A stretch of 60,136 nt of DNA, filler included, from Sphacelaria rigidula (lineage: Eukaryota): assembly GCA_964200075.2 (NCBI GenBank). It is 10 parts of 10 records of this genome, joined end to end, with 100 filler letters (N's around TTAATTAATTAA, not from the genome) between each part and the next. Parts side by side here need not be neighbours in the genome. Positions count along the whole stretch, not along the records: positions 42,168 to 48,090 come from CAXNAA020023455.1; 9 more parts are not named here. The stretch is one strand, 5' to 3'. Position numbers and translations under genes: made by a program. Shown here piece by piece: positions 5,925-57,280 of this stretch. Position 1 is the stretch's first letter, and each line of letters begins with the position of its first letter. A model generated the notes under the pieces. That model ran no database searches and had not been told where the DNA came from. It saw only the letters and a list, made by a program, of their open reading frames with translations.

Positions 5925-6024
5925 NNNNNNNNNNNNNNNNNNNNNNNNNNNNNNNNNNNNNNNNNNNNTTAATTAATTAANNNNNNNNNNNNNNNNNNNN
6001 NNNNNNNNNNNNNNNNNNNNNNNN
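5925..6024. other. Artificial contig spacer (first of nine; others at 11949-12048, 17973-18072, 23997-24096, 30021-30120, 36045-36144, 42068-42167, 48091-48190, 54114-54213)
   Basis: Identical N44-TTAATTAATTAA-N44 (stops in all six frames). The intervening pieces are 5924 bp (six) then 5923 bp (four), i.e. length-sorted concatenation. Confidence 0.98.
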
Positions 6025-6096
6025 TGTAGGGATGCGAGGTCAATGGTCTGATGACTATGGCATGCATGATCATGAGTACACCCCCACCCCCTCACC

Positions 6097-8669: not shown

Positions 8670-9490
8670 GACATGACTTGACTCGGAATATGAATGGGAC
8701 CTAGATTACCCACCGTGAAGGCCCAAGGGTTCACGTGTATAGCTTGAGGCAGGACGAGTTCACACTCTCCAAAGCTTTCTTGCAATCTGGTCCACGGTGA
8801 TACCCACAGGTGATGGGAGCAGTGAGAAGGAGCGCATGGAGGGAGAGGGAGAAGAAAATACTCTGTTGAACTGGACTGCACTGCATCGCGCTGTGTTGTA
8901 CTGTTGTGCCTTATTGTTCAGATTTGCCCATCTATATACAAGCACATTCAGGGCGAGTCATCTGTTGTGCATTGACCTAATTTTGACTCGAAAAACGAGT
9001 GCAAGATCCAGATTACCCACGGTGGAGGTCCAAAGGTTCAATTCCAGAGCTGGGGGCAGGACGAGTTCACGCTCTCGAAAGTTTTTTGTAATCTGGTCCA
9101 TGGTGATGGCCATACATGATGGGAGCAATGGAAAGAAACGCAGGGAGGGGGGGGAGAGAAGACAACACTCTCCTGAACTGTACTTTTCCTAGATCGTGCT
9201 GCATTGTCCTGTGCTACAGTGAGCCTGGTTCGGCATTGTCCGTCTATATACAACCACCTTCAGGGACAATAATCCGTTGTGCGTTGACATAATTTTTACT
9301 TGAAAGATGAATGCAAGACCCAGGTGACCCACCGTAGAGGCTTACAGGTTCAACTGTTTTCAAATATTTCGTGTGATCTGATAATTTATGGTGCCCATCG
9401 AAGAAGGCAAGAAAAGCAGTGGGGGAGGAGATAAGACAACACTGCACTGTACGGTATCACAGCTTTTGTACTGCATTGTACCGCTGTTGT
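8670..9490. repeat. Degenerate tandem repeat, ~308-bp unit, about 2.6 copies
   Basis: agattacccac(c/g)gtg(a/g)agg(c/t)ccaa(g/a)ggttca recurs at ~8703 and ~9010, and more diverged at ~9322, with colinear downstream sequence. Confidence 0.75.
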
Positions 9491-9778
9491 TGTACTCTCT
9501 GTTTTAACCCTTTTGGAACCCTCCCCTCCCGTCCCCGGGCCAGACGCCTCATTATGAGAAGCCCTGATAAAGAAGAAAATATGGAAACAGAAAAGACCGA
9601 CGACAAAACCTTTCACTGTTGAAGACCAAAAAAGACTCCAGACGCACACGTCGTGGATGTACCGATTATGAAACTCCGGAGCGGTCGGGTTGGGTTTGTC
9701 CAATGATATCACGCGACGGGCGGAGTGTGTCCAATCGTGCGCATTGACAAAACTCTCGCAAAACAGAACAAATTCCTA

Positions 9779-10590
9779 CGAGCTGGGCCAGCCGAGAAGC
9801 GATTCTGCAGTTTGCAGGCCCATTATACGGCCACTACTTGGAGCTGGACCCTGAAATTTGGTATGGGCAATGAGTAGGGCATAATAAAAAAAATTACTGG
9901 CGTGCACAAGTTTTTGTTTTTCATGAGCTAGGGGCATTTTACCAATACCTGAAAACTGATTATTGCCCTTAACTAATGAAAAAAAAACTTGTGTACGTCA
10001 GTAATTTCTTTCATTATGCCCTACTCATTGTCCATACCAAATTTCAGGGTCCAACTCCAAGTATTGGCCGTATAATGGGCCGTTCAGTGACGATCAGAAG
10101 AAATTCGGAACAGCATTTTGCAGGCCATTTACTGGCCCACGTTTGGTGTTTGTGTGTTGAAACTTTGTGTGGGGCGTGGCTAGGGCATAATCATCAAAAG
10201 AAAGTGGGTCAGGTTGATTTTTTTCAATTTTTTTCACTGGTTTAGGGCGTTCTACTATAGTAAAGACCATATTTCACGAGAACGCCTTAACCTTTATGAA
10301 AAATAGAAAATGGAAGGCCCATTTTTTTTTATTCGGCACTCTTTTGTGGTTCTTCACAAAATTCGTCGTCGCNNNNNNNNNNTTAGTATTGGCGCTATCT
10401 CCCTTGGGTATAGGAATTACTAGACATGGGTTTTAATCAACGAGAAAATATGAGCCCCAACTTATGAGCAGATGGGCACCTTCCCCTTGATTAGACGATT
10501 AATACAAAATGCGGATCACGGCCCAACTCGTTTGTGTCGATGATATGTTGCTTTTAGAGCTTAAATCCGTTTTTTGGCTGGCGCAGCTCG
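9779..10590 (+). mobile_element. Non-autonomous TIR DNA transposon, TA-flanked (Tc1/mariner-type MITE)
   Basis: TA|cgagctgggccagcc ... ggctggcgcagctcg|TA termini and an internal ~100-bp inverted repeat (~9817-9915 / ~9985-10081). A homologous copy lies at ~51505-52640 (-), with TIR fragments at ~50493 and ~54253. Confidence 0.75.
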
Positions 10591-36399: not shown

Positions 36400-39300
36400 A
36401 CAGACGAAGCCTTCACCCCCCGGGCAGGGACGGTTTCGACGGTGCTGGATATCCATTATGTGCAGAGTCATGAGCTATCGTCACACCAAACACTGCCCCA
36501 ATATCAGCAGCACCACCACCCTACTGCATACCACGCACCACCATATCCCCACCATCCCCCACAAAACGCCTATCAACCTTCCCCACCAACAGACAACTAC
36601 CCACAGCAACCTAACTAACAATATCACCATCCCGCACCAACAGACCACTACCCACAGCAACATTCCCAACAGTAATAACCACCGGGCCGGCAGCACCACT
36701 CTTACTACTATCCTAACCCGGAAAACAGCCTTCATCACCAACAATACCAAACCGCAGCCCCACCCCACGACCAACAGTAGCAGCATCAGCAGCCGAGCCC
36801 CCCCCAGCTACATCTGCTCCGTCTCCCGATACGTACACCTCGGAGCATCCACGCCGATATATGACAGTTTCCATGCCAAAAGGCGAGTCTCGGTTTCGGC
36901 TTGGTAATGTTGATTTGCAGGGATATGCTATGATGCATCGTGAGGAGGTGTCAGAGAGGTGATGATTTGGAAGAGTGGATATCTGACACCGGGGCCTCGC
37001 ACCATTCTACTGGAAGCATGGAGGGGTTGTTTGATGTGCGAGTTCCCCCTCATGGTAACGAGAATGTGGTTTTAGGATATGGTACTGTGCTTCCAGTAAG
37101 AACCGTCGGTAGCCTTGACCTCAGATTTTACATGGGACTCACTGACGGGGCTGAGCGCACTTGTTTTTGTGTGAAGCTCACTGACGTGTATGCGCTTGAT
37201 GGTATGAAGTCCAACCTCTTCTCTTGACATCAGGCACAGTACAAACAGGGCATTACTTTGACTAGAGCAAGCATATCGTTGTTGAACGGGCAACTACGAT
37301 TCGACCGTAATTCGCGTTCATCTCCTCAATTCGCGAAACGTTTGCCGCCCACATCGGATAATGCTTCGATTGCAGTCCCGGCCATGGGGGAACATTCTAC
37401 ATATACTGTGTCCGCGCGTGTTACTGTCAGTGCCCCCCCGACTGCTTCATCTTCGCGTGCTACTATCAGAAACCCTTCGACTACTGTGCCTTCGTGTGCT
37501 TCCGTCGGTGGAACCCCGGCTACTGTAGCGCAATCTACTGCGACGGTGGCTTCGCGTGCTACTGTCAGAAGCCCCCCGATTACTGTGTCTTCGCGTGATA
37601 CTGTCAGTAACGCCCCGAGTACTGTGTCTCCGCACGATGCTGTCAGAACCCCCCCGGATGCTGTGTCTTCGTGTGCTTCTGTCGGTGCAACCCCGACTAC
37701 TGTAGCGCAATCTACTGCGACGGTGTCTTCGCGTGCTACTGCCGACTCATCCAATAGGTTTCCCACAGGATTGACTCCTGTTCCAGGTTTGCACTTACCG
37801 GACCTACTTTTGTCCGAGGAGGATGAGATTGCTACATGTAGTCCCTCAGAATTTCCCCTCGAGTTCTAGGCCTTTAGGAATTGAGTGAGGAGGAGGTTTT
37901 GGATTTGGTGCTTGCAGTTATAGCCCCCGGCCGTCGACCATCCACTGTCGGCAAGCCCCAATAAACGTTGGACATCAACTACCATCACGTTTCCCTCTAT
38001 CATGCTCACGAGATCATTCTCCGAGCAACTGCCGCCCAATGGGGCATTACTCTCACAGGGCAGCTGACACAATGCACAGGATGTGTGGAGTCAAAAGGGC
38101 GACGCGCCGCGATCCCACATTGAAGTGCTCTGTCACCCACGGTCCTCGGCATCGTGCACCTCGATCTCACGGGCCCGCATGTGCGGACACTAGGCGGTTC
38201 ACTATACATGCTCCCCTGTGTGGATAGTAAGTCTCGTTCCATCGTGCTTTGCGGCTTGGCGAGGAAGGCACACGCTTTGGCATAGGTGAAGGGATACGCG
38301 GCCGTCGCCATATCAGTTCGGTGTTCCTCCGTGCTTCCGATAGAAAACGGGGGTGGATTTCGTTCGCAACACTTCATCGATTTCGGTGACGAGGTACGGA
38401 TTCGCCGCGAGTACACAGCGCCCGACACCCCGAAGCACAACACTGTGGCCGAGAACGCAATCCGGCGCACGATGAAGGTTGGCCACGCTGCGCGATGTGA
38501 CGCTTTGCGCCTTTTCCCGTTGGGGCCTTCACGGACATCCCCGGACTCGGTGCCACCTCGCATGGACTCTGGTTGGAGTCTGCGGTGTGGGCTGCGGATG
38601 GCTTCAACCGCTCTGCCGCGATGGCCAACCCTGGGAAGGTCCCGCCGTACCAGTTTTTCACCGGCCGTGCCCCTCCTCTCCAGATCGTTGCCTTCCTTCA
38701 CCCTGGAATGATGAGGGTCACATGACGCTCCAAGATGGGCCCGCAAGCTGTCAAGTGCTACTATCTCAACAACGACTGCAGAGTGATGCTACGGTGGGGT
38801 TGCACTTTTTGAGCGAAAATGTTTCTCGGGGTGTTGGGCGGATCATTTTGAGAATCGACATCATTTTCACTTGAAAAAGACTGAAAATGATGCAGAAATA
38901 CGAAAAGGCTCCTGTGTGCATCTCCATGTCTTGTCCCCGGAGATTTGGTTTATACAGTGAGCCCCATATATTTGGGCTCCTACAAAAACGAGGCCCAGAA
39001 ACAAAAAGGGCAACCCCTATCGTAGCATCGCTCTGCAACTATTCATCGTCAACCGTGAAGGTCATCAAAGCCTCAACCGGCTCCGTCTATTATACCAATA
39101 ACATGGTCCGGACAGTGCCTCGTCTACCACTCCAACCATCAGCGCCGCTCGACGGCAGGAGGGGGGAACACGGCAACACCGAGACTTTAGCTTCCGCCGC
39201 CGCCGCCAACAACCCGCCGCCGCTGCGAAACCATACTACCCCACAACCGCAACCATATGCCGCCGCCGCTGCCAACTTGCCGCCGCCGCACCGTGTTGCT

Positions 39301-41670
39301 CCACGATCACATCATCCCGCACCCGGCGCCGCCGTCTACAACTCGCCGCCGCCGCGAAACCATTCTCCCTCACAACCGCAACCACATGCCGCCGCCGCCG
39401 CCAACTTGCCGTCGCGCCGCCATGCTGCCCCATGATCACATCATCCCGCACCTAGCGCCGCCGTCTACAACCCGCCGCCGCCGCCGCAAAACCATGCTAC
39501 CTCACAGCTGCAACCACATGCCGCCGCCACCACCAACTTGCCGCCGCGCCGCCATGCTGCTCCACGATCACATCATCCAGCACCCGGCGCCGCCGTCTAC
39601 ATTCCGCCGCCGCCGCCGCCGCGAAACCACACTATATCACTACCGCAATCATATGCCGCCGCCAACTTGCCGTCGCCGCCACACCGTACTGGTCCGCGTC
39701 CTTATCATCCCATCTCACCACGACCATATTATACTGCTCCGCCAGGACGACAGCACAAACCTTCCAATCCCGTCCCGCCGCGACCTTTCAATTCCCTCCC
39801 GCCGCGACAATGACTTATTATCCCATTTCCCCGCAACCGCAACATACTTGCTACCGCCACTACATCGCACGACCGTGCCACCACCGACATTTACACCGAC
39901 TCGTGCGGCACATCATCCACCTCTACCTTCCGCCACATCGTCGGCACCACCACCATCCGTCGCCACGCAACACGAACAAAAGCAGCGCGACACACTGCCG
40001 ACTTCACCACTCCAGCAACCGCATTCGCTGCACCGTCAACCAACTTCACCCCCGATTTTCAATGGTTCTTCGGCACCATCATCCATTTCAGAGGCTTCAT
40101 TATCAGCAACTCACCATCTACAAGACCACTCTCCATCACCTTTGCCGTTGCCCGACAAGGTGGTTAAGGAACTGGACCTGAGTAGTGACCCTCCGCAACC
40201 GGGAAGGACCCGATCGGAGACGGCCCAGCATACAGCCGAGAGGGAGAAGGGCGACAGCATCGCGCTTTTTCATCGTGAGAGGGATCTTTTTGCGCAGCTC
40301 GACAAACCATCCCTTTTATCCGCCCACCTCACGCGCTCCGCAACAGAGGCCGGAAGGAAGCGGCAGGGCGATGGGGCAGGGGGGCGCAAGGGTTTGCAAT
40401 ATCGGACTGCCATTACGATGGCAACGCGCGAGGACATCAACATAGCGATGGAGGAGGAGCGTCCCCCGCGTGAACAACCTGAAGTTCCACATCGCCCAGT
40501 GAAAGAGTTGAAGACACCAAAGACATATGCTGAAGCAACACATCCGGAACACGAAGGGGTATGGGAGGACTCCATGGCGCGAGCGTTTCAAGGCATGAAG
40601 AAAGCGGGAACCATGGATGCGGTAATATAGCAATCAGTAGATAATATTATTCCCGCGAAGTGGGTTACAACTGGAAGGCTGATGAATTTAGCTGGCCAAC
40701 AAAAGCGAAATCAAGCCTGGTCGCAAGGGGAGATCGACAACGGGCAGACATCGACTTTAGTGAATTATATGCACCCACAGTGGCGGTTTCGAGTGTACGA
40801 TTGCTGACAACACTTACTTGCTTGTGAGCAAAATCTTTGCTTGCGCCATTTTGATATCGAGCAAGCTTTTGTGCAGTCCGTACTGGACGAAGATATTTTT
40901 ATGCGTTTGCCTCATGGCTGTTGTAATTTATCTGGTAAGGTAGTGAGACTCAATGAATCGCTCTATGGAGTCAGACAGGCTTCGAGACAGTGGCACCTTC
41001 ATTTAGCAGGAGGCCTTACGAACCTAGGTTATGATCAGTGTTTGGCAGATTCGTGTGTGTTCTGACTGATGGAGGACAACCAGGTAGTGATCACCTTGGT
41101 CGTACATGTAAATGATATCTTTGTCGTAGGGGATGAGGAAAGCTGTGATGAATTTGGTAAGCAGCTGAACACGATGGTTCCAGTCAAGAATCTAGGAGAA
41201 CTGCGATGGTATTCGGGACTGTAACACGAGAGATACTTGGAAAGGGGGACCCGTACTGTATCGTAACATAAGTTTGCAGAGGAATCGGAGGAGGAGTACA
41301 ATATATCATGGGAGAATAAGACGCCTATGAGTGCAGATGTAAAACTCTAGGATTTCAATGAGGATGCACAGGTCATGGCGTTCCCATTCAGAGCATTGGT
41401 AGGATCACTCATGTGGCTAGCAAACTAGACTAGACCGGATATTTGTGACGCAGTGAGAGCGGTAGCGAGGAATTGCGCATCCCCAAGGTAAATTCATTCG
41501 CGTACTGCTCTTGGTATACTTGGGTATGTTAGGCGAACGAGTACATTGGGTATCACTTTTCGGAGAGGCAGTCTGCAAGGTCTCAGCTTCCAAGCATATA
41601 TATGCTGATGCAGACTACGCGAGTAAGGCTGCCGATAGTCGATCAGTGTCGGGTGGACAAGTCATGTACG
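36400..41670 (+). mobile_element. Decayed Ty1/copia retrotransposon pol (protease-integrase-RT-RNase H start)
   Basis: WISDTGASHH protease; HHVSLYHAHE..CTGC; VHLDLTGP and EYTAPDTPKHNTVAE integrase; PKTYAEA, LVARG, HFDIEQAF, SLYGVRQASRQW and VHVNDI RT motifs; TRPDI; YADADYA RNase H. Multiple stops and frameshifts. Confidence 0.93.
38779..39035. mobile_element. MITE inserted in the copia integrase C-terminal region
   Basis: ~32-bp TIRs cagagtgatgctacggtggggttgcactttt / aaaagggcaacccctatcgtagcatcgctctg split the reading KCYYLNN...YSSSTVKVIKASTG. A related terminus lies at ~17862. Confidence 0.8.
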
Positions 41671-42815: not shown

Positions 42816-44182
42816 AGGGGAGGGGGGGGATGATAAATATTTTGAAGGAGTTGCGGTATGACCTTCTCGCGACCTATTTGCATCGATGACAGCGCAGCGC
42901 TGGCGCTCTTGAAAAGTCGGTCTATTTGGCATTGAGTGGAGACATTTTGTGCCCATCCAACATGTCAGTTGTACATGTCCAAGAACCCCTCGGTCGTTTT
43001 TCATCACCATACATGAGTGTTGATATGATTGCCTCATACCCAGTGTGAGCGTACAGACTCACCCAGGAGTAGCAGTGCATTTTTTTAGCGAGAATCTCCC
43101 GTGATGTTGTTTGTCGGATGACGAATTTCTAGTCTCGAACACTGTATGAGTCCCTTCACTTCACGACCACGGGTCCTTTCTGCCGTGCTGCTCCCCCAAC
43201 AGTACGATTTCTCCTTCCCTTTCTAAATCGCTTGTCGTATGTATCACTTTCGTCAGGCGCGGGCACTGCCCTCTTCCGTTCCTCCGGTCACTCTTGTTGA
43301 ACAGCTGCTTGACGCTGCAAATTTGTGTGGATGATACGTCGTTATTCAAAAATGACAAGCGCGTAGTTTGTCTTTGCTCTTTCGTATTGGGAAAGATGTG
43401 AAAATATGGAATCTGCACATCTGCGCGGACATGCGTGTGCCCGCTGCTTCAACCTCGACAAAAAAAGCGCTTGTGCTGGTGCGTGTGTTCTTGTCTTGTT
43501 ATCCCATTTATTCTGGACGCCAACCGACACACACCTTTCGGTATGAGTGGGCGCATCAGCTGGGGTCACACAGAAAGGGCAACAGAGGATGTTTTACTTG
43601 GCTCATTTATTTTACAAGCGGCATTTGTCTCAGGTACAGTACTTGCGAGACGGGACACACGTCGAGGCAACCTCACCGACAGCATGAAGCGGTACTCAGT
43701 AGCAGCACCGCGCTCGATTCTTACAACTCACTATACAAAGCCACACCCAAAACACATCGTATCTCGCACCAGCTACTCTTGAACTTCCAGAAAATCTCAT
43801 TGTATGAATAGAAAAGCGTACCCAGCATACCCGGCACGGCCAAGGCCTGCGCTTCTACTTCACTTCTCACATTGCGATGCACTACGCCCCTTGGACACCA
43901 CACACACACGCACACACATGACCCTCCTTCAACGCTTCATCACTATGAAATGACAACGCAACGTACCACACACACACAGTGTGGCGATCGAGAACATCAC
44001 CAGCATACCCTCACCCCCACCTCCCAGTCTGGAAGGTGGCGGCGGGCGCGGCTAAAAAACGCGGCAGACATTCAATTATGACGATATACGAAAACGTACG
44101 CACCAAAACACTACTTGAAATAACACACTGCTCATCTTGGCAGGCTGCTTATGCCTCCCAAGGCTCGCTGTGTACACGACCG

Positions 44183-44312
44183 TCATGGACCAGAAGACAT
44201 TTTTTTTGCGTCACCCTTGTCCACGCTAGGGTCGCCACCCCACCAAACGGCTAGGCCGAATCTCCGGCCGAACGTCATGAAATTTTTCTTGCTGATGTAA
44301 CCGTTGTTCTCC
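44183..44312 (-). CDS. AFG1/ZapE-like ATPase with EF-hands, terminal exon
   Basis: Acceptor cttgtcttttcag, phase 2. (R)ENNGYISKKNFMTFGRRFGLAVWWGGDPSVDKGDAKKMSSGP* completes the degenerate EF loop DRENNGYISKKN. Confidence 0.8.
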
Positions 44313-44830
44313 CTGAAAAGACAAGCGCGCCAGTGCGAGATAGTTAAAAAATGAGTACGCCGATAGCAGACAAAAGGCAAGTGGCGAAACGGCACGCCTG
44401 AATAAAAGACGGCCGTGTTCAGTCTGGCCGGCCAGGCATGTGGCTAACCCGGCGTGTTTGTGTTTGCCGGTAAACCGTCCAGAGTGATCATGGGTGGCTT
44501 GTTCCACGTGACGCGGTACTGCAAGCAAAAAGCACAGTCAAAAAGATCGCGCTCAATGCCGTGACTATGTGTGGCCAATATCGTGATGCGGTATACCGTG
44601 ACGAAAGTGGCACTACTATACCGCGTGAAGCATGCGCCGTTCAACAGTTGGAAGGGCACAACGCATGAGGCTGGGGTGAACCACCCTAGTCATGAAGGAA
44701 AGCGCACGAGCACATAATTACACTATGCCGAACAGAGGATCTCTGATATGCAATGTGCTAGTGCACCGACATCGACCGGCGTGGTACGTACAGCATGCAC
44801 GCGCGGTGAAAGATTCTAATTCGTCCTCAC

Positions 44831-44895
44831 CTGTCCATGGCTTTGAAAGACGAATCCAAGGCGGCTTGAGGGACGTTCCGGTGCCCGTTCTTCGC
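44831..44895 (-). CDS. AFG1/ZapE-like ATPase with EF-hands, penultimate exon
   Basis: Acceptor tgtcccgtgacag, donor AG|gtgagg, 65 nt, phase 0 to 2; encodes AKNGHRNVPQAALDSSFKAMD(R). Confidence 0.8.
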
Positions 44896-45658
44896 CTGTC
44901 ACGGGACAACAAACAGAGAAGGGGTAACTCGTAACTCGTAGCATATTCTCCATTGCTGGCATGGATGGATATAAAATCACAACGCGGGATCTACTCGCAT
45001 ACCCTATACCCTGGAAGAGCATATCTCGGCATTCAACAATCCCATAGACATGAGTCTGATTGCTCAGACCCTAAACCACAAGACACAATAGAGTCGACCT
45101 CACGACTGAACACAGAGCAACGCGGGCCGGAGAAGACACGGGCATATTCCTCCCGCTTGAGCCATCAGGCACACCTCCATGAACTTGCCCTGGAGTCGGG
45201 TCAGAGACAAGGCCTCGCATATGACCTATTTCGTACGACTTGAAACGCTCCCACTTGGAGTCGGTGCTGGAAAAACAGAGCAAAAACAATTTACTGTTTT
45301 CTGGTTGAAATTACGATACACTTCACAAGGAAACCCGCTGTTTGCTGCTGCCATTTTTCATCGGTACAAACCCCATACTGGTCTTTATTGTGCGCAATAA
45401 CCTTGTCGAAGCAGGGCTTGTCTTGCTTTGACGAAACCGCACTGGAGTGTTTTTTTTTTCAAAGTCACGCATGCAATTGCGGTTGCATCCAAAAACATGA
45501 GAAGCGATAACCTCTTGCTCTACAATGTTGACCCTTTGGGAACCCATTGACGATTTTTGTTTTTGTAAATCGGCATCATTTCGACTTGAATGACTCAAAA
45601 TGACGCCGATTGACAAAAACAAAAATCGTGCATGGGTTCCAAAAATGTCGGATCATAC

Positions 45659-45812
45659 CTCGCAGAGATCTTCCATGAGAAAAAAGAGCTCGTCGCGGTC
45701 CATTGTTCCGTTCCCGTCGACATCATAAGCATCCCAAATTTTATACAAGTCAGGATCGCTCAGTTGCTCCCCGCTAAACTCCAGCAAATAGTTCTCCGTT
45801 GGCCGCCATTTT
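45659..45812 (-). CDS. AFG1/ZapE-like ATPase with EF-hands, canonical EF-hand exon
   Basis: Branch-like ctgac then ctcag acceptor, donor GAG|gtatga, phase 2 to 0; encodes KWRPTENYLLEFSGEQLSDPDLYKIWDAYDVDGNGTMDRDELFFLMEDLCE. Confidence 0.8.
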
Positions 45813-47177
45813 CTGAGTATTTCATAGCAAGGTGCGTCAGAGGATCGTCATAGTCCAGCACGTATGGCACGCTCGAGCGTATTTCGTCGCCTCGTCCAAC
45901 AGACCATCTGTTGTCGAAACAATGAAAAATGATTAGTTAATTGACTGATTGATCAATTATTGCACTTTAATTGACCCCCCAGGGATCCAGCCGTTGCCAT
46001 TATCCACATGATAGTGACATGATAGTGACATAAAAGACGTGCCCCAGACAACAACCAGTGAAACACTCGCTCGAGAAAAATGAACACAAAAAAGGCACAA
46101 CAGACAAAGAGAGTCGGAATATAACATTATATGTGCGATAAGGCGTTCGGTAGAGATTCGAAGAAGGTCAATATTTCCGGGACGTACGAAAATGCGTTCC
46201 AAGAAATGTGTATGATACTTCAAACCCTTTCGCGCCATGATCGCTGGTTGGATGTTACTGACGTTGCTGACTTTCGGCGGGACACGGCATAGTCGCTGGT
46301 CTTCCAAACTAATGTGGGATATTCTTCGTGGAATGCTGGAAGCCCCTACGTATAACCTAAGCCCGTTTACCCCTACGCAACCGACCATCACAGCCAGTAT
46401 CCATGATTCTGCAGGCGAGACTGTCAGCACCCACACAATCGGAACGATTGCCGTTTCTGTTTTGTTTTGTATGAGTAAATATGTTTTTTGCGCACGGCCT
46501 TTTCCCTCTGTAGTCATGCTGCAGGAGCCGTCCAATTCTAGGTTTATTTTCTTCCCTTGTTCATTTTATATAATAATAATTATTGTAATTATTATTGTAA
46601 TTATGATTATGATTACTGCTATTTAGTTTTCTCCGTTCCTTTCCTTCCTCTTCCTGCTTGGTTTATTTATGGTTTCTGTTTCTCAGTGTAATATTTTTGT
46701 TAGTTCTATATATATTCTTCTCCTCCACGCTGTTTCCCCCTCCAGCGAGCGTTCGCGTTTTGTTTTATCTTGGATACATGTATCTATATTATGGATAATG
46801 ACATGAATACATCAGTAGCTCCCATCACATTTCTCAACATCAGTTAATCTGCGACAATCTACCAATCAATAAATAAATCAAATAATCAAGCTATCAACTT
46901 GCATGGGTCCCTATGAATAGCGGGTTTAATTGAAGCTATTCATATCCTCCACGCTAAACAATGAAACGCAGGATAATACATTTTCCTGCACTCATGTCGA
47001 TACCTATTTCGACTACGTTTTCAGTTTGCCATATCACCGCCCCGCTGGATGGTGCACATGATCCTCGGGGTGCTTGTATCTCTGAGCCACCAATATGTTT
47101 TTATGTTACGTGTGTCGCTCTAATCGCACGATTTCCCACTCAGAAATTTCCCAGTTTTTTGCACAGCTACTATCGAC

Positions 47178-47226
<49 letters not shown>
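47178..47226. repeat. (CA)n microsatellite just inside the intron after the AFG1 exon
   Basis: Direct inspection. Confidence 0.95.
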
Positions 47227-47227
<1 letters not shown>

Positions 47228-47245
47228 GCTTCTTCCTTGAGTCAC

Positions 47246-47439
47246 CTCTTGAGGTAATCCTTGCCCTGCATCTCGATGAGCCTGGAGACAGTCCTATGAA
47301 AGGCGAAGACCTCATCGGGCATGTCTTCGCGCCTCCCCGGCCCAGGATCGAAGATCTCAGTCGGCAACGCCTCCGCCAGGCACACCATTTTCACGCCGCG
47401 TTCGTATAACACGTCGACAAGAGTGATCAACCTTCGAAC
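47246..47439 (-). CDS. AFG1: AFG1/ZapE (LACE1)-family AAA+ ATPase C-terminal exon
   Basis: Acceptor ctcccacgcag. VRRLITLVDVLYERGVKMVCLAE...DEVFAFHRTVSRLIEMQGKDY matches the family motifs RRFITLID.LY and FAF.RT.SRL.EMQ. Confidence 0.9.
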
Positions 47440-47932
47440 CTGCGTGGGAGACACAAAGTTTTGAAATTGAAAAAAAGTGTGAGGTGCGGTGCGGCACACA
47501 CGGTGTGGAGTGCTCTGGATGATGGCGCATGTGTAATCGGTCACGGGTATGATACAATTGGAGAGCCACCTACCGTCCCTGCTACAATAAACGCAAGCAT
47601 ATGCAACCGGTGAACGTGGGATTCTTTGTAGCAGCCAAAACAGGCAAGACAGGAAAGATAGAGTTGGGTATCAATTAGATATTTTCACGGCCACCTTGTT
47701 ACGTCATGGGTAACAGTGACAGATACTCTTCCCGTCCCTGCTACATATATATATATATATATATAGCATGACACTGAATTTTGATATAGTAGTCGTCCAG
47801 CTTAAGGTGCTACTGCAGCAGGCGCATTGCTGTTCCACTCCGTAATGTGAGTAACCCCCCACGACCCAATTCTTGCCTCCGAAACAAGTTTCTGAGGGAA
47901 ATATCACTAATCCCCCCCCCGCCCTCCCCCTC

Positions 47933-48090
47933 AATGTGCTCGGTCTCGAAGTGGATGCGTGGCCAATGATTGAACGGCTAAGGAAAGCAACAAATGAGTA
48001 CGCCCCCCTCCCCCCCCTCCCGCGGGAAGTGGACGAAGGTGGCATGCAATCGTTTGATGCATTAGACAGTAGGGAGAAAACGATGGCTAT
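47933..48090 (+). mobile_element. Two head-to-tail LINE family A fragments bounded by C-runs
   Basis: C-run, 3' tail ending caaatgagtacg, C-run, then REVDEGGMQSFDALDSREKTMA. Further short A pieces at ~2745-2812, ~12100-12145, ~32432-32475, ~35995-36044, ~54027-54113 and ~55810-55880. Confidence 0.78.
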
Positions 48091-48190
48091 NNNNNNNNNN
48101 NNNNNNNNNNNNNNNNNNNNNNNNNNNNNNNNNNTTAATTAATTAANNNNNNNNNNNNNNNNNNNNNNNNNNNNNNNNNNNNNNNNNNNN

Positions 48191-51504: not shown

Positions 51505-52640
51505 TGCGAGGTGGGCCAGCCAAGAAACGGATTTAACCCTCAGACCGCGAGATTAATCTTCTGGATCGCGCATATTTTTTTTTCACTTGAAATTGATGCC
51601 GATTCAACAGAAGACTAACCTCGCGGTCTAGGGGTTAAGCTCTCAAAGCAATATCTCATCGACACAAATGAGTTGGGCCATGATCCGCATGTCGTATAAA
51701 TCGTCTGATGAAGGGAAAGGTGCCCATCTGCTCAAAAGTCTGGGCCAATATTTTTTCGTTGATTAAATCCCATGTCTAATAATTCCTACGAGTATACCTA
51801 ACGGAGATAGCGTCCACACTAAAATATGTATGAAACCCCCGATCGATGCATTCCGCCGATGACGACGATTTTTGGTGTGGACATCCCCTAGAGCACGGGG
51901 AGACGATAGATACCCTCACCTTCACCTAATCCGTTATTTCTCTCCAGGTATAGCGCACATAACTTCTTACTAAAATCAATATATTACGACCAAAGGCACA
52001 AGATGAACTAAATCTGGATATCGCGTCTCCGTTTTTGAGAGCTATGGTATGAAATTTCGTGTGGAGAACCGCTAGTGAATAATAAAGCTAGAAGAAACAG
52101 CTTTTTGATTTTTTTCCGCTGTTGGAGCAGTTTAGAGGAGAAATGTACACTGGTCTTGGGCCTTATCTCATTTTTTAGCTCATTTATTAGAAATGTGATT
52201 TGAAACTCAGCGTAGAGAAGGACAGAGGTGTGCTAAATAATTGAAAAAAATGGGCCTTCATTTTGGGGGGGGGAGATGTTCGGGTGTTCTCGTAAAAAAA
52301 TGGTGGTTTCCATTCTAAAACGCCCTAAACCAGTAAAAGAAAAAATCAACGTGACCCGCTTTGTTTCGTTAATTATGCCCTAGGGAGGGCCCACACAAAG
52401 TTTCAATACACGAAAATCGAACGTGGCCGGTGAGTGACCTGCGAAATACTGTTCCGAATTTCTTCTGACCATGTCACTAAACGGTCCATTAACCGTTTGA
52501 TATATAGAAATGGACCCTGAAATTTGGTATGCACAATAAACAGGGCATGGTAAAACAAATACCAGTGCACACATTTCCACCCCCCCCCATTCATTAAGGG
52601 CAATAATCAGTGTATCAGTACAATGCCCTTAACTCACGAA
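51505..52640 (-). mobile_element. Second copy of the 9779-10590 non-autonomous DNA transposon
   Basis: Colinear reverse-complement homology (e.g. ggaccctgaaatttggtatg, gagcagatgggcacctt, ggcccaactc); carries a nested TTAA MITE. Confidence 0.75.
51537..51634. mobile_element. 98-bp TTAA MITE nested in a larger element
   Basis: TTAA duplication; the homologous empty site gagc-TTAA-atccg is at ~10557-10569. Confidence 0.9.
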
Positions 52641-55600
52641 AAACAAAACCTCGTGTGCATCACGTCGAATATAAGCCGGGATAAGGGTGTACATGGGCGC
52701 TCGTACCAAGCTGTATATCTCGCGTGTCGGGATATGGCCGCGGGAACGTGTCTAGAATCGGCAGAACATCTAATGCCCATTAATTAAGGGCAGCGTATTC
52801 ATTCGCCACGTGCTGTAGATGTGGCTTGTGTGGATGTGGTTGGGTGAGAAGTGGTTCGCTTTTTGTTGTTGTGCTGAGGTGTGCGGCGCAATTCCTCTCA
52901 TTCTCGATCAGGCGGGCTTACCACGGTTCGTATAATAGCCCAAATTCGTACAGGGTAGTTGACACATTTTGGGAATAGCCCTAACCCTAACCATAACGTA
53001 TCCGAAGCATACCGAGAACCCTCGGGCAAGGGGGGGCTCAACGGGTGCCGTAGGCGAAGTGTGCGTTGGTAGACCTCAGATCATTGTCGCCCCCCCTAGA
53101 AGATCCGAATATCGGGTAAAGTCTGCCGTCCCCGACAGCCATCTGTATCGAACACAAGGTCAAACACACACGAGCAGCGGGCATTAAACGGCAGCGATGA
53201 GCTTGTCGTCCTTATCAACCCCTGTGTCAGGTGGTACAGATGTAGCGGGGGGTATCTATCTATCACCCCAACTTTACTGATCCCTCCAGTAGTTTCTCAC
53301 AACTTAATAGTGAGTGGACAATGACAAGTAAGCTGCACCAGCCTCACTCAATGATGACAAAATGTTGCTGCACGCCAGTTGGCCAATATATTCCCTATAT
53401 GCGTGATTTCTGTTATACGCCCCACGTCCTTCCTCCTTGTGTCGATGTAACGCCTACAAAATCGTACTCCGAAAACTTGCGGGACTGTCAGGGGACAAGA
53501 AAAAATCGGAACATATAACAAACCAGGGCGTTGACTAACCCCTCGACCGGCCTGGTGTATCCATCTGTTGGGTCGTTATCATTTTCACTTGAAAATGATG
53601 AAAATGATTTCTACACTCAGAGGGTCGACCTGCAGGCGCTCAAGGGGTTGGGACTTCGAACACCCAATACTTTCTGTTCTAAGAACCCGGCCTGACAGTC
53701 TCGTGAACATTTGGAGTATGGTAATTGTACGCGATAGAGGCTCTTTTTGTGACATCTGGGCACTGGTTCATGAACAAAGGAATTTTTTTCTCATCTTGAA
53801 GTATTGGCAGGTGTAGCAGATCTTGTTCATCGTTGAGCGCGCGGGTTGAAGACTGGTGTTTTTATCACACTTTGTTTCGTGCGTGCCCATAGCATATGTG
53901 GTGGTGACATGATCGCTGCTCATGGTCTCCCCCTACGCAGCATTACGAATGCGATTTGTACTGTACTGTACCCGACTACAACACGGATAAATACGTGCGT
54001 TTGGCAACGACCTGCCCCCCCCCCCCTGGAGAGGGGATAGGGAGTAAAGCATATTCGCATGGCCCAACGGACGCTGCGAAAATTCTGAAATTGCGATTTC
54101 GGGTGGGGGACCTNNNNNNNNNNNNNNNNNNNNNNNNNNNNNNNNNNNNNNNNNNNNTTAATTAATTAANNNNNNNNNNNNNNNNNNNNNNNNNNNNNNN
54201 NNNNNNNNNNNNNTATAAGAGCATGGGCCTGCAAACTTCAAATCCGCCTCTAGGCTGGCCCAGCTCGTATAAGCAATGATACGTTCCAGTTGTAAAATGA
54301 CGCGCACGCGGCTGCCGTTACTCCAATGCTGAGCAGATTCCGTCAAACGAACACCGCGTGAGCTAGGAAGGACTAGCGCTTGAGCTCATGCGCGTCCACG
54401 GTTGATGCTTGTCCGTGTTTTTTCGGAGTTCGATGTGTAGGTGAAGGACCACCGAGATGTTGAGTCAACGACCAACGAACGCCGTGTATTGAATCTCATC
54501 TACAGATTTAGACGAATGCAATCAAAGGGTAGGATTCGACAGCACCCTTTCTCCCCTCCCCGATGATGTCATGAGCATATCTCCCCCAAAACCCTCACCT
54601 GGGGTGTGTGTGTGTGTTATTTGATCCTGTGACCGATTGCGAGCGGACTACGTGATCCTTGTGAATGCATGAGAGGTATCGTGAAAACATCGGAACCTTC
54701 ACTATGTACCCCTAGAATAGTCAGGAGCACCACCGTTTTTTTCAACAGGACCCAGCGTTGGATTCCACTCCCGGGTGTGGTTACCTCCCTCTCCCTGGAC
54801 AGATGGCTCAACCTCCACATGAGATATCAGCAAAAAAATCAAGGTGTTTTCAGTGTAGTCGTACGTGCCACGCAGTACATTTTTTACTCTTGATGAGGTG
54901 TCGAATGTACTGAAACAGCCGAAACAGAAGCGGGGCAACACTAGCCGGCAAGTTCTTCTAAAAATGAAGTGGGTTGTTCAGGACCCGTCCGTCCAAGTGC
55001 TGACACTTCAATTCGCGTTTGCGAAGCCTGACTTTACCCAACTTGGACAAAAGTTATGTCTAAAATACCCCACTCATCCGACAGCGTAGATGCGATTTTC
55101 CCAGTTGCCTTTTGTGACAACGGGTCTATATTACCTGTACTAGCGATGTCGGGTGTTTTTGGTCATTTTTCAGCGGACGAAGGGCTAGTATCGCAATGGA
55201 CACCTCGAAGTCGGCGTCTCCACCAAATTCCAGCCGAACACATATTTTTCCTCGAGTTGGGTCGGAATTGGGCCCGCGAGACTTTGACCCGGATTACCGC
55301 GGAATTGCCCTGTGGCTCCCTCAGTATGGTGGCGCCACGCCTTGTGTAGTCGGGTGCTGGGTGACTGCCCTTGACGGGGTCTGGCGCTGTGAAAGCAGCA
55401 TTTGTTGGTCACCAGCAGTCACTGGTACGCTTCTCCTCTCCTGTCCTGCACAAGCTGGGCAAGAAATCGGGGGTCGCCAATATCAACACGCGCCAGGTCA
55501 ATATTCCGCGTGGGCACCTGATATTTTGATGTGTGACTTGCACGTGACGCGTCCTCACATTCGAAGCTGGTCCGTGTGTTTTTTTCGCCGACTTGATCCG

Positions 55601-56395
55601 ATTTTCCGCCCAGCTTGCTCCACTAACCATCAACTCTCTGTCGCTTGGCAGCGCCTCTCTATTGTCGGTGCACGAGGCGATACTCGTGTACAGAAACCCG
55701 CGACCTCACTGGCATACGGCACCACATGTGGACAAATGTGGATGTGAACCCTTCAGCACCTACCCGTCAGTTCACCAACAGTTGGCCGGGTTTTTTTGGA
55801 GGGAGGGGGCGTACTCATTTGTTGCTTGCCTTCGTCGTTTGACCATTGACCACGCATCTCTTTCGAGACGAAGCACCGTTGTGTACCCCTGAGCATGCAT
55901 GCCATAGTCATAGGACCGTTGACCTCGCATTTTTTTTTGGGGGGGGGATGCTTGTTTTTGGTGGAACGATAAGGCCTGCACACATGGTCACATGTGCATG
56001 AACCACGATCAGCAGCACGCTGCCATCTCGGGACAGTAAACATTCCAACAGTACATTAGCGGTGATGATGCCAAGAGTAGTACATGTGTGAGGACATGCG
56101 TGTACTTTCTGTGTTCTGTAAGCTAGGGTCTACAGGTTTACAACTAACGTTCACCCCAAAGGCGTGTGTGTAAAACAGCAAAGTTCGTATCTTGCAAATA
56201 ATGAAATGCATGGGAAGTCGATGAAACACAGGAACACCTTGAATTCTTCCCCAAATTCGACCGTCTTCTGACATGCTCCTTGTGGACATGAGTGGAACGC
56301 TAGAGGTGGTTACGGACGAGCTGTACCTGCCGTCTGCAGGAGAATTAAGCTAAGACGAAAAGTTTTAGCATTTTCATCCCCCCCCTCCCATGAAA

Positions 56396-56766
56396 TACGT
56401 CATGTTGTGCGGCGTGGGAGAACCTCAACTCCGAACAATGCGGATGTACCACGGAGTGTTTAAATGGTGAGGCACCCATGAGGCAGTGTAAAAGCCGTGA
56501 CTGTCTCAGGAAGTGGCGTACCAGAAAATAAAGAAACTCATTGTAGGCTGTCATCCACATGCAAGATACTCAGTAGGCTTCGGGCGGAACCATCTTAGCA
56601 GGATGCAGCTCACTCGTCATGCGACTCGCCGAACGCACCACGGCGCTTCGCGCTTGGTGATCGAGTGCAAGCCTGGCCCCGCGAAAACCCGGCGTGCTCC
56701 GTCCCGACTTTGTAGGGATATGAGGCCAATAGCCTTATGACTATGGCATGCATGATCATGAGTACA
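56396..56766 (+). mobile_element. Retroposon family B copy with a C-rich target-site duplication
   Basis: 5' flank cccccccctcccatgaaa, 3' flank ccccccccctccatgcaa. Confidence 0.75.
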
Positions 56767-56846
56767 CCCCCCCCCTCCATGCAACAGGGGCGAAGTATAG
56801 CAGTTTTCTGGACAAATGATTTCTTCGGCCATTCGGTCACGTGGAA

Positions 56847-57280
56847 CAGGGGATTTTACAAATTGGGGATGGATTTTTTATTGGGAATGAAAACCCGGAT
56901 AATGAAAATCTTCGTATTCACACCAAATATTCGAAACATGGTTCCATTTCTTCACTTGCTGGTGGCTATTGACAACTACCACACGCCATACAAATTTGGA
57001 TTTCGATAACCGAAATGTCGGGGTGCTAGGTGAAAAACCAATGTTGGCGTCCGATCGGATCTAAATCTATCTAAATCCCTCAAAATTGGTTTCGCACCCA
57101 GGACCCCGACATTTTGATTGTCGAAATCCAAATTTGTATGGCGGGTGGTAGTTGTCAATAGCTACCAGCAAGTGAAGAAATGGAACCATGTTTCGAAGAT
57201 TTGGTGTGGATACGAAGATTTCAATTCTCCGGGTTCTAATCCCCAATAAATAACCCATCTCCAATTTGTAAAATCCCGTG
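56847..57280. mobile_element. Foldback MITE with ~195-bp inverted arms
   Basis: ~56847-57040 is the near-exact reverse complement of ~57087-57280 (e.g. ttcgaaacatggttccatttcttcacttgctgg). Confidence 0.85.

What the first reader, a model, noticed from the sequence alone, without database searches (positions are those of the whole stretch)
44183..47439. AFG1/ZapE-family ATPase fused to a C-terminal EF-hand pair
Seen: four exons with compatible phases give ...SRLIEMQGKDYLKR|KWRPTENY...WDAYDVDGNGTMDRDELFFLMEDLCE|AKNG...FKAMDR|ENNGYISKKNF...*. Loop 1 is canonical (D1,D3,N5,G6,E12); loop 2 is degenerate (N at position 12). Known: yeast Afg1, human AFG1L/LACE1 and bacterial ZapE end shortly after the SRL.EM motif without EF-hands. 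Inference: a Ca2+-responsive organellar AAA+ ATPase.
Basis: partly seen in the sequence, partly recalled or inferred. Interest (0 to 1): 0.7.

Follow-up and report, generated by a model that had tools for sequence, protein, structure and literature searches.

The report
Brown-alga AFG1 ATPase with EF-hand tail
The window holds the last four exons of a brown-alga gene for an AFG1-type ATPase (mitochondrial in yeast and animals) that is spliced to a calcium-binding-type tail; the fusion is real and expressed, but it already sits in the databases for many algae and protists.

Summary
In three cDNA-like public runs, one contig per run joins 47246|45812, 45659|44895 and 44831|44312 across GT-AG introns. 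A DNA run shows only the unspliced locus. The exons encode the C-terminal end of an AFG1_ATPase domain (Pfam 3e-13) followed by an EF-hand pair. Loop 1 is canonical; loop 2 lacks the position-12 acid.

The same architecture is predicted in Ectocarpus, Undaria, Laminaria, Scytosiphon, Nemacystus, Choristocarpus and Discosporangium. It also occurs in Tribonema, a pelagophyte, a haptophyte, dinoflagellates, Perkinsus, Amoebophrya, green algae and Selaginella. 78 of the 120 best database clusters carry both domains. The tails share a conserved GHRNV linker, which suggests one ancient origin.

None of my four literature searches turned up a paper discussing this tail. The nearest published precedent is calmodulin binding by Arabidopsis AFG1L1.

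Calcium regulation and mitochondrial location are inferred, not shown. The upstream AFG1 exons lie outside the window.

The parts
47246..47439 (-). Fourth-from-last coding exon: C-terminal end of the AFG1_ATPase domain, including the SRLIEM motif. It ends with 2 bases of a split R codon.
   Evidence: Pfam PF03969 at 3e-13, 49.9 bits (cut-off 27), profile positions 305-360 of 361. The RNA-type contigs of X1-X3 cover 47246-47442. The acceptor is ...cccacgcag|. The upstream loose end of the contig reads on in frame as AFG1 sequence matching Ectocarpus ...PMMNLVHINQ.
45813..47245 (-). Intron of 1433 nt (GT..AG) containing a (GT)n microsatellite at about 47172-47234.
   Evidence: Joint 45812/47246 in one contig each of X1, X2 and X3, and in none of X5. 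Depth in X1-X3 is 0 across most of the intron.
45659..45812 (-). Exon encoding the linker (KWRPTENY...) and EF-hand 1. The loop DVDGNGTMDRDE is canonical.
   Evidence: Pfam EF-hand_1 at 6.7e-6, 25.7 bits (cut-off 25.4). tblastn shows 74% identity to the Nemacystus and Ectocarpus tails. Covered by the spliced contigs.
44896..45658 (-). Intron of 763 nt (GT..AG) holding a 55-nt-arm inverted repeat (45530-45584 / 45595-45649), probably a MITE-type repeat.
   Evidence: Joint 44894/45658 (cut +1) in X1-X3 only. Inverted repeat 85% complementary. DNA-run depth is 4460-10052 there against about 29 nearby.
44831..44895 (-). Exon encoding the conserved AKNGHRNVP linker and the entering helix of EF-hand 2.
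   Evidence: tblastn shows 77% identity to orthologues. Covered by the spliced contigs.
44313..44830 (-). Intron of 518 nt (GT..AG).
   Evidence: Joint 44311/44830 (cut +1) in X1-X3 only. Low-depth (2-4) unspliced contigs are also present.
44183..44312 (-). Last coding exon: EF-hand 2 loop DRENNGYISKKN (position 12 = N), exiting helix ...FGRRFGLAVWW, an 18-residue extension, and the stop TGA at 44185-44183.
   Evidence: Orthologues end at or just after VWW.
43600..44182 (-). 3' untranslated region. The contigs run a further 23-159 nt below 43600.
   Evidence: Contig pieces 43600-44311 run on beyond the laid stretch in X1-X3 (table 8).

Best explanation
This is the 3' part of a nuclear brown-alga (Phaeophyceae) gene. 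It is the orthologue of Ectocarpus siliculosus CBN80128.1.

Shown:
- The last exon of the AFG1/ZapE-type AAA+ ATPase domain is spliced to three exons that add about 115 residues.
- These residues form one EF-hand pair.
- The fused protein is the main transcript form.
- It is conserved across brown algae.
- It belongs to a much wider AFG1 subfamily whose tails share a GHRNV linker between the two EF-hands.

Inferred:
- The protein is imported into mitochondria. The N-termini of orthologues are basic, nearly acid-free and disordered.
- Like yeast Afg1, human LACE1 and trypanosome ZapE, it sits on the matrix side of the inner membrane and supports assembly or turnover of respiratory-chain subunits.
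- Ca2+ binds the canonical first loop. The second loop, which has no acidic residue at position 12 in any brown alga or in Tribonema, serves only as the structural partner.
- The resulting opening of the EF pair changes ATPase activity, oligomer state or partner binding.
- This would be a built-in (cis) version of the Ca2+/calmodulin binding reported for Arabidopsis AFG1L1.
For: Splicing: in each of X1, X2 and X3, one contig has all three GT-AG joints. The DNA-type run X5 has none.

Domains: AFG1_ATPase at 3e-13 and EF-hand_1 at 6.7e-6 on single exons. In the Ectocarpus orthologues, AFG1_ATPase reaches 1.6e-86 and EF-hand_7 1.4e-7 to 1.2e-8, above the cut-off.

Conservation:
- 5 of the 13 hits to the AFG1 exon carry both domains.
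- 6 of 6 hits to the tail are brown-alga AFG1+EF proteins, including the early-branching Choristocarpus and Discosporangium.
- The window's 162 alignable residues are 79% identical to Ectocarpus.

Wider family:
- 35 of the 150 best cluster representatives have the tail.
- 29 of 34 tested reach a Pfam EF-hand family at E<=0.001.
- 78 of the 120 best 90%-identity clusters carry both domains.
- All 37 tail-bearing rows fall in one 111-row clade of the ATPase-core tree, with SH-like support 99.

Fold: AlphaFold2 of the Ectocarpus protein gives helix, beta, helix, helix, beta, helix at residues 477-549 with pLDDT 76-89.

Walker A (GGVGTGKT) and Walker B (LLCFDE) are intact in the orthologue.

Presequence-like N-termini: 6-10 R+K against 0-2 D+E in the first 45 residues in 4 brown-alga proteins, with pLDDT below 50 for residues 1-46.

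Precedent: AFG1L1 is cited as a calmodulin-binding AAA+ ATPase of chloroplasts and mitochondria (passages in PMC6471148 and PMC4844381).
Against: No Ca2+ binding, ATPase or localisation data exist for any member of this subfamily that I could find.

EF-hand 2 is degenerate in brown algae, scoring 3-4 of 6 loop criteria with position 12 T, I or N. The pair therefore has at most one ordinary site.

Oomycete relatives keep a tail with no recognisable EF-hand. The tail may therefore have a Ca2+-independent role.

pTM of the model is only 0.49, so nothing can be said about how the tail contacts the ATPase.

The ATPase exons of this particular gene are not in the window. The full protein of this species was therefore not seen; only 30 nt of the upstream exon were.

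Runs X1-X3 are labelled RNA only as the tool's guess, and they come from a single study.

Arabidopsis AFG1L1 is reported as dually located, so a plastid share cannot be excluded.
Confidence: 0.6

Rival explanations
1. The fusion is real, but the tail is a Ca2+-independent structural or docking module. It would be a pseudo-EF-hand pair that mediates oligomerisation or partner binding, for example through the invariant GHRNV linker and the FGRRFG..VWW end, with no sensing role.
For: Loop 2 lacks the position-12 acid in all 7 brown-alga rows and in Tribonema. 5 of 34 tail-positive representatives, including the oomycete Achlya, have no Pfam EF-hand hit at E<=0.001 yet keep the tail and, in 3 of these 5 (Achlya included), the GHR motif. 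The most conserved element of the tail is the GHRNV linker, not a loop.
Against: Loop 1 meets 6 of 6 criteria in 6 of 7 brown-alga rows and 5 of 6 in the seventh; the window's own loop also meets all six by eye. 13 of 42 non-brown rows have both loops at 6 of 6. Such conservation of liganding residues over this evolutionary distance is hard to explain without metal binding.
Confidence: 0.25
2. The protein works in the plastid, or in both plastid and mitochondrion, rather than in mitochondria only. It would link stromal Ca2+ to protein quality control, as proposed for Arabidopsis AFG1L1.
For: AFG1L1 is cited as dually located in chloroplasts and mitochondria (reference title and citing sentences in PMC6471148 and PMC4844381). 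Most named carriers of the tail are photosynthetic lineages or their relatives.
Against: The brown-alga N-termini look like mitochondrial presequences. They show no long hydrophobic signal-peptide core, which a four-membrane stramenopile plastid would require (by eye; no predictor was run). Non-photosynthetic Perkinsus and Amoebophrya carry the tail. A published phylogeny places eukaryotic ZapE with alpha-proteobacteria and reports none in plastids or cyanobacteria (PMC7314023, passages).
Confidence: 0.12
3. These are two separate genes: an AFG1 gene ending at the TGA after ...DYLKR and a small EF-hand gene downstream. The joined contigs would then be read-through or assembly chimeras.
For: A stop codon follows the AFG1 exon immediately if the intron is retained. 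Three short database ORFs from other brown-alga contigs read into that intron (P0001, P0004, P0008).
Against: There are exact GT-AG joints in three runs. Depth is even along the joined contig at 36-52, against 0-4 in the introns. The EF-hand exon has no start codon upstream of loop 1 in its open frame. The same fusion is predicted or transcribed in dozens of lineages, including MMETSP transcripts.
Confidence: 0.02

Closest known systems
Ectocarpus siliculosus CBN80128.1 / UniRef100_D8LKZ5 (P0017; 'conserved unknown protein', 'EF-hand domain-containing protein'), and the Phaeophyceae 'unnamed protein products' of Ectocarpus spp., Scytosiphon, Laminaria, Undaria, Nemacystus, Choristocarpus and Discosporangium
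   Same: Same architecture, and 79% identity over the 162 alignable C-terminal residues. Same canonical loop 1, same degenerate loop 2, same GHRNVP linker and same ...FGRRFGL.VWW end.
   Different: The window's protein carries an 18-residue extension after VWW; similar extensions occur in Undaria, Laminaria and Discosporangium. None of these proteins has been studied experimentally, as far as my searches show.
Yeast Afg1, human AFG1L/LACE1, Trypanosoma brucei ZapE1/ZapE2 (mitochondrial AFG1/ZapE ATPases)
   Same: Same Pfam family PF03969 with the SRLxEM end motif. Their reported role is on the matrix side of the inner membrane: turnover of complex IV subunits and interaction with Oxa1 (passages in PMC7050145, PMC12699882 and PMC7314023). 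This is the basis of my functional inference.
   Different: In the ATPase-core tree, 45 of 156 rows lie outside the tail-bearing clade and none of them has the tail. The taxa of those rows are unknown.
Arabidopsis AFG1L1 (Bussemer, Chigri and Vothknecht, FEBS J 276:3870)
   Same: An AFG1-family ATPase tied to Ca2+ signalling. It is cited as calmodulin-binding and located in chloroplasts and mitochondria.
   Different: There the Ca2+ sensor is a separate protein (calmodulin, in trans). Here an EF-hand pair is part of the chain. The paper itself is not held, so I saw only its title and citing sentences. I could not compare the calmodulin-binding site with the tail. The 3 named angiosperm AFG1 hits (of 3) carry no EF-hand Pfam domain.
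Bacterial ZapE (cell-division protein ZapE)
   Same: Same ATPase family. P0010-P0012 match the window's AFG1 exon at 44-55% identity.
   Different: They end 19-26 residues after SRLxEM, with no EF-hand.
Calbindin D28k-type EF-hands (PDB 2f33, 6fie)
   Same: Best solved-structure match of the tail: E 5.6e-15, residues 461-512 of the Ectocarpus protein.
   Different: These are free-standing six-EF-hand proteins. No solved structure matched the AFG1 part by sequence. By fold, only generic AAA+ proteins such as TnsC, ORC/Cdc6, DnaI and DnaA matched.

Membership tests
AFG1/ZapE ATPase (Pfam PF03969) | Match to the AFG1_ATPase profile above the curated cut-off | tested here: met
   The window exon 47245-47439(-) scores 49.9 bits against a cut-off of 27, on profile positions 305-360 of 361. 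Orthologues score 274-293 bits.
AFG1/ZapE ATPase (Pfam PF03969) | Walker A (GxxxxGKT) and Walker B (hhhhDE) of the AAA+ core | not testable with these tools
   The exons that would hold them are not in the window. Both are intact in the Ectocarpus orthologue: GGVGTGKT at 149 and LLCFDE at 214.
AFG1/ZapE ATPase (Pfam PF03969) | Conserved C-terminal FAF.RT.SRL.EM motif | tested here: met
   The window reads ...EVFAFHRTVSRLIEMQ.
AFG1/ZapE ATPase (Pfam PF03969) | Mitochondrial location (eukaryotic members) | not testable with these tools
   Only indirect evidence: basic, acid-poor, low-pLDDT N-termini in brown-alga orthologues. No targeting predictor was available.
EF-hand pair (Pfam PF13499 / PF00036) | 12-residue loop with D1, D/N/S3, D/N/S5, G6, hydrophobic 8 and E/D12, flanked by helices | tested here: met
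   Loop 1 is DVDGNGTMDRDE and meets all six. EF-hand_1 scores 25.7 bits against a cut-off of 25.4 on the single exon.
EF-hand pair (Pfam PF13499 / PF00036) | Second loop also competent for Ca2+ | tested here: not met
   Loop 2 is DRENNGYISKKN, with E at position 3 and N at position 12. All 7 brown-alga rows score 3-4 of 6.
EF-hand pair (Pfam PF13499 / PF00036) | Two helix-loop-helix units paired through a short beta bridge | tested here: met
   AlphaFold2 model of the orthologue: H477-487, E494-496, H497-512, H519-529, E536-538, H539-549, with pLDDT 76-89. EF-hand_7 scores 32.2-35.6 bits against a cut-off of 30 in Ectocarpus.
EF-hand pair (Pfam PF13499 / PF00036) | Measured Ca2+ binding | not testable with these tools
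   Needs a bench assay.
AFG1-EF subfamily (my working name; tail with GHRNV linker) | AFG1 core, then about 25 residues, then EF1, then a GH[RK]xV linker, then EF2 at the C-terminus | tested here: met
   The window matches the tail HMM at 7.5e-59 and contains NGHRNVP. 123 of 164 tail-positive sequences held carry GH[RK]. Among tail-negative proteins with at least 60 residues after the motif, 1 of 27 does, and that one is a misplaced motif match. The set contains near-identical cluster members.

The most novel reading that the evidence does not exclude
The EF-hand/GHRNV tail marks an ancient AFG1 subfamily that I found described in no paper. It would have been present before the split of stramenopiles, alveolates, haptophytes, rhizarians and green plants. 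It would wire matrix (or stromal) Ca2+ directly into the AFG1 step of respiratory-chain assembly and turnover.

Lineages that lost or degraded the tail, namely the oomycetes and the three angiosperm hits seen here, would then either have given up this control or, as in Arabidopsis AFG1L1, replaced it by calmodulin in trans.

The Perkinsus gene model that joins AFG1-EF to a mitochondrial calcium uniporter domain would fit such a link.
Probability: 0.3. Interest if true: 0.55.

Novelty: new member of a known kind. Interest (0 to 1): 0.35.

Why it matters
For this window the result is an annotation. It is the brown-alga orthologue of a protein already deposited, under automatic names, for Ectocarpus and many other organisms.

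The wider point is modest but real. How AFG1/LACE1/ZapE acts is still unclear. A large share of non-opisthokont eukaryotes carry a version with a built-in Ca2+-sensor-type module and an invariant linker. The ZapE/Afg1 phylogeny paper I checked mentions neither 'EF-hand' nor 'calcium' (PMC7314023).

That gives a testable handle: does organellar Ca2+ control AFG1 activity? It also offers a possible evolutionary rationale for the calmodulin binding of plant AFG1L1.

Tried and rejected
- Whole genome: none is held for this window, so paralogues in the same species could not be sought.
- Upstream AFG1 exons: tblastn with the full-length Nemacystus and Ectocarpus proteins found only the four C-terminal exons; all other hits had E>=3 (the Undaria and Choristocarpus queries were run but their hits not printed). 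The 30-nt upstream loose end of the RNA contig has 0 matches in the window at up to 3 mismatches. The preceding intron is therefore longer than 12.7 kb, or the exon lies under a mask or across an assembly break.
Only 43600-48090 was laid.
- No listed holder is on record as RNA. X1-X3 are 'RNA?' by the tool's guess. I treat them as cDNA because they cover exons only and carry the intron-less joints.
- The ESM Atlas search with the tail gave only generic EF-hand clusters at 0.86-0.87, below the level the tool calls more than a lead.
- The PDB sequence search gave no AFG1/ZapE structure. Foldseek gave only generic AAA+ folds at TM 0.2-0.67.
- Pfam was run on 51 of the 108 open frames of at least 75 aa in 36000-60136. 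One hit resulted, a retrotransposon Pol_BBD fragment at 36934-37224(+). There was nothing in the 12.7 kb upstream of the exon.
- The search of earlier findings returned nothing on this genome and nothing on AFG1.
- The original AFG1L1 paper is not held.
- My first in-script splice used 47245 instead of 47246 and gave a broken frame. It was corrected. The window row is therefore void.
- I considered complex prediction and a careful IQ-TREE run and did not run them.
Full report
**1. What is in the sequence**

On the minus strand of 44183-47439 there are four coding segments:
- 47439..47246
- 45812..45659
- 44895..44831
- 44312..44186, followed by TGA at 44185-44183

Each internal boundary has GT at the intron start and AG at its end. 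The introns are 1433, 763 and 518 nt. The junction phases are 2, 0 and 2, and they fit. The joined frame is 543 nt and open to the terminal stop.

My first in-script join used 47245 and broke the frame.

Taken alone, the first exon matches Pfam AFG1_ATPase at 3e-13. That is 49.9 bits against a cut-off of 27, on profile positions 305-360 of 361, the very end of the domain. The second exon matches EF-hand_1 at 6.7e-6, 25.7 bits against a cut-off of 25.4. The two small last exons alone match nothing.

If the first intron were not removed, a TGA would follow ...DYLKR at once. Whether the EF-hand exons belong to this gene was therefore a real question.

**2. Transcript evidence**

No public run holding this stretch is on record as RNA. 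Four runs of one study, flagged 'RNA?' by the tool, hold only 19-24% of its words. Four runs of a second study hold 61-99%.

I laid three of the first kind (X1-X3) and one of the second (X5) on 43600-48090.

In each of X1, X2 and X3, a single contig covers these pieces in order:
- 47442-47246
- 45812-45658
- 44894-44830
- 44311-43600

The contigs are 2306, 2501 and 2373 nt long, with depth 52, 47 and 36. The skipped pieces have CT..AC ends on the plus strand, that is GT..AG on the gene's strand. Introns have depth 0-4 in these runs.

X5 shows none of these joints. It covers the introns with colinear genomic contigs at depth about 29.

The three runs therefore behave as cDNA, and the spliced form is the dominant one. 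They come from one study, so this counts as one independent source.

About 1130-1210 nt of each contig lie upstream of 47442. The 30 nt shown read, in frame with the exon, as AFG1 sequence that matches the Ectocarpus protein just before ...VRRLITL. That length is about what 393 upstream residues plus a short leader would need, judged from the Ectocarpus protein.

The 3' UTR runs from 44182 to somewhat below 43600.

**3. The rest of the gene is not in the window**

tblastn with the full-length Nemacystus and Ectocarpus orthologues finds only the four C-terminal exons. The 30-nt upstream piece has no match in the window.

They include a very high-copy element at about 47950-48090.

The preceding intron is therefore very long, or the assembly is broken there.

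The window's N runs (pairs of 44 N about every 6,024 bases, with a few runs of 10 N) look like masks. One could hide a small exon.

**4. Whose gene it is**

The AFG1 exon finds 13 proteins at E<=0.001 among 187 candidates:
- Five are full or near-full proteins with both AFG1_ATPase and EF-hand Pfam domains. By name they come from the brown algae Nemacystus decipiens (86% identity), Undaria pinnatifida, Ectocarpus fasciculatus, Scytosiphon promiscuus and Choristocarpus tenellus.
- Three are short ORFs from genomic contigs that read into the intron.
- One is a partial Phaeothamnion protein cut at SRLIEV.
- Three are bacterial ZapE or ZapE-like proteins (two named so).
- One is a 710-residue protein of unknown source without a tail.

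The tail of the Ectocarpus protein finds 6 proteins among 64 candidates. All are brown-alga AFG1+EF proteins, now including Discosporangium.

The Ectocarpus cluster includes E. siliculosus CBN80128.1 / UniRef D8LKZ5. It is named 'conserved unknown protein' and 'EF-hand domain-containing protein'. A Laminaria digitata member sits in the Undaria cluster.

The window's C-terminal residues are 79% identical to Ectocarpus and Nemacystus over the 162 alignable positions. They are 62-65% identical to the two early-branching genera. The window is thus from a brown alga, and the gene is the orthologue of these.

**5. The architecture is widespread**

A profile of five brown-alga proteins, run against 1.84 billion cluster representatives, gave 10,783 hits at E<=0.001.

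Among the best 150, 35 match an HMM built from the brown-alga tail alone at E<1e-5. That is 34 new representatives plus Choristocarpus. Of those 34, 29 also reach a Pfam EF-hand family at E<=0.001, and 5 do not.

Names recovered for some of them:
- Selaginella moellendorffii 'AFG1-like ATPase'
- Chloropicon roscoffensis
- Ostreococcus mediterraneus
- Polarella glacialis
- Perkinsus chesapeaki
- Amoebophrya
- Chrysoparadoxa australica (partial)
- Achlya hypogyna (tail present, EF-hands unrecognisable)
- MMETSP transcripts

A second search used a profile of 40 tail-bearing proteins. It scored 7,999 candidates, of which 6,278 had E<=1e-60, and listed the best 120. Of these, 78 carry AFG1_ATPase plus an EF-hand Pfam domain and 42 do not (my count of the table).

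New names among the 78 are Tribonema minus, Pelagophyceae sp. CCMP2097, Haptolina ericina, Symbiodinium sp. CCMP2456 and Amoebophrya sp. A25. A Lotharella protein is named 'EF-hand domain-containing' by UniRef but lacks a Pfam EF entry.

The three named angiosperm hits (Tanacetum, Thalictrum, Artemisia) and the five named oomycete hits in that table have no EF-hand Pfam domain.

Both rankings favour tail-bearing proteins, because the query profiles include the tail. The fractions are therefore not frequencies in the family.

**6. One origin or several?**

The tails share more than generic EF-hand likeness. An L-W-x-x-Y-D lead-in precedes loop 1, and a G-H-R-N-V stretch follows the first EF-hand.

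Among tail-negative proteins with at least 60 residues after an SRLxEM-like match, it occurs in 1 of 27, and that one is a misplaced match inside the ATPase core. The set contains near-identical cluster members.

I built a FastTree tree from the ATPase core only. It has 156 rows. I left out 11 rows with under 75% core coverage and 12 near-identical cluster members.

In that tree, all 37 tail-bearing rows lie in one clade of 111 rows (SH-like support 99), and none of the 45 rows outside has the tail. Inside the clade, the trait needs at least 17 changes, 9 of them forced by starred branches.

Some 'tail-less' rows are truncated models. One example is a partial Selaginella entry whose core is identical to the tail-bearing one.

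The simplest reading is one early gain followed by many losses, decay and truncated models. A quick tree without taxon labels does not prove that.

Brown algae, Chrysoparadoxa and one unnamed relative form an all-tail clade with support 97.

**7. State of the two loops**

The window's loop 1 is DVDGNGTMDRDE and meets all six criteria I scored: D1, D/N/S at 3, D/N/S/G at 5, G6, hydrophobic 8, and E/D12. Loop 2 is DRENNGYISKKN and fails at positions 3 and 12.

The same pattern holds in all 7 brown-alga rows. Loop 1 scores 5-6 of 6. Loop 2 scores 3-4 of 6, with T or I at position 12. Tribonema is similar.

Thirteen of the 42 other rows have both loops at 6 of 6, among them Polarella, Perkinsus, Symbiodinium, Haptolina and the pelagophyte. 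In Selaginella the roles are reversed: loop 1 is degenerate and loop 2 canonical.

The brown-alga protein therefore most likely binds one Ca2+ per tail.

**8. Fold**

I ran AlphaFold2 on the Ectocarpus siliculosus protein with the 40-row alignment. Mean pLDDT is 81.4 and pTM 0.49. The tail forms two helix-loop-helix units joined by a short beta bridge:
- H477-487, E494-496, H497-512
- H519-529, E536-538, H539-549

pLDDT is 76-89 over that stretch. Residues 1-46 are below 50. The low pTM means the position of the tail relative to the ATPase is not predicted.

By sequence, the only solved structures matched are EF-hand proteins. Calbindin D28k is best at 5.6e-15. There is none for the AFG1 part. 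By fold, the model matches only generic AAA+ proteins.

**9. Likely function**

Shown:
- a spliced, conserved AFG1-EF protein
- an intact Walker A and Walker B in the orthologue
- one canonical Ca2+ loop

From the literature (passages only): AFG1/LACE1/ZapE sits on the matrix side of the inner mitochondrial membrane. It affects turnover or assembly of respiratory-complex subunits and interacts with Oxa1 in trypanosomes (PMC7050145, PMC12699882, PMC7314023).

Inferred:
- The brown-alga protein is mitochondrial. Its N-termini have 6-10 R+K against 0-2 D+E in the first 45 residues in four species.
- Ca2+ binding at loop 1 modulates its ATPase cycle, assembly or partner binding.

A precedent for Ca2+ input into this family is Arabidopsis AFG1L1. 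It is cited as a calmodulin-binding AAA+ ATPase of chloroplasts and mitochondria (PMC6471148 and PMC4844381, passages and reference list). The original paper is not held, so I saw nothing of it beyond its title.

**10. Is it in print?**

My full-text searches were:

| Terms | Papers | What I read |
|---|---|---|
| 'afg1' + 'ef-hand' | 7 | Passages of 4; the rest as listing only |
| 'afg1l1' | 5 | Listing only |
| 'zape' + 'ef-hand' | 5 | Listing only |
| 'afg1-like' + 'calmodulin' | 8 | Listing only |

None of the listed titles or the passages I read points to an AFG1 protein with its own EF-hands. The ZapE/Afg1 phylogeny paper PMC7314023 has 0 occurrences of 'EF-hand' and of 'calcium'. Subscription journals are mostly outside the library, and supplements were not read.

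**11. Verdict**

- The gene model is right.
- The calcium-sensing interpretation is reasonable but untested.
- The architecture is not new. It is deposited under automatic names for Ectocarpus (the CBN80128.1 record) and for many other eukaryotes.

I file the window's gene as a new member of a known kind. I note that the kind itself, AFG1 with the GHRNV EF-hand tail, appears to be uncharacterised.

Noticed in passing
P0115 (Perkinsus chesapeaki KAF4668311.1), not in the window: One predicted protein of 644 aa carries AFG1_ATPase, the EF-hand tail and a mitochondrial calcium uniporter (MCU) domain (5.2e-21). It may be two neighbouring genes merged by the gene caller, but either way it places AFG1-EF next to the mitochondrial Ca2+ channel.
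   Followed up: no
P0230 (Symbiodinium sp. CCMP2456 'Afg1l', 1059 aa), not in the window: AFG1+EF-hand protein model that also lists a HORMA domain (PF02301). It is probably a merged gene model.
   Followed up: no
P0056, not in the window: An AFG1 representative in the otherwise tail-less 25-row clade has a C-terminal EF-hand-like pair without the GHRNV linker. It did not pass my tail-HMM threshold. It may be a second, independent EF-hand fusion.
   Followed up: no
window 45530-45649 (intron 2 of the gene): Inverted repeat with 55-nt arms, 85% complementary, 10 nt apart. DNA-run depth there is 4,460-10,052 against about 29 beside it, and it is also raised in the RNA-type runs. It is a MITE-like high-copy element.
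   Followed up: partly
window about 47950-48090: Extremely high-copy sequence, with summed contig depth about 921,000 in the DNA-type run and 52,000-57,000 in the RNA-type runs. A similar peptide-level repeat (…ATNEYAP…) recurs near 55800 on the minus strand. Its nature is unknown.
   Followed up: no
window 47172-47234 and 47735-47772: (GT)n and (AT)n microsatellites, in and just upstream of the 1433-nt intron. Read laying skipped them as repeats.
   Followed up: no
window 36934-37224 (+) and 39191-40627 (+): A retrotransposon Pol beta-barrel domain fragment (Pol_BBD, 5.9e-7), and a 479-aa open frame with no Pfam match, lie downstream of the gene.
   Followed up: no
window, whole: Pairs of 44-N runs recur about every 6,024 bases, with a few 10-N runs. 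They look like imposed masks rather than assembly gaps. One pair (48091-48190) lies 650 nt upstream of the AFG1 exon.
   Followed up: no
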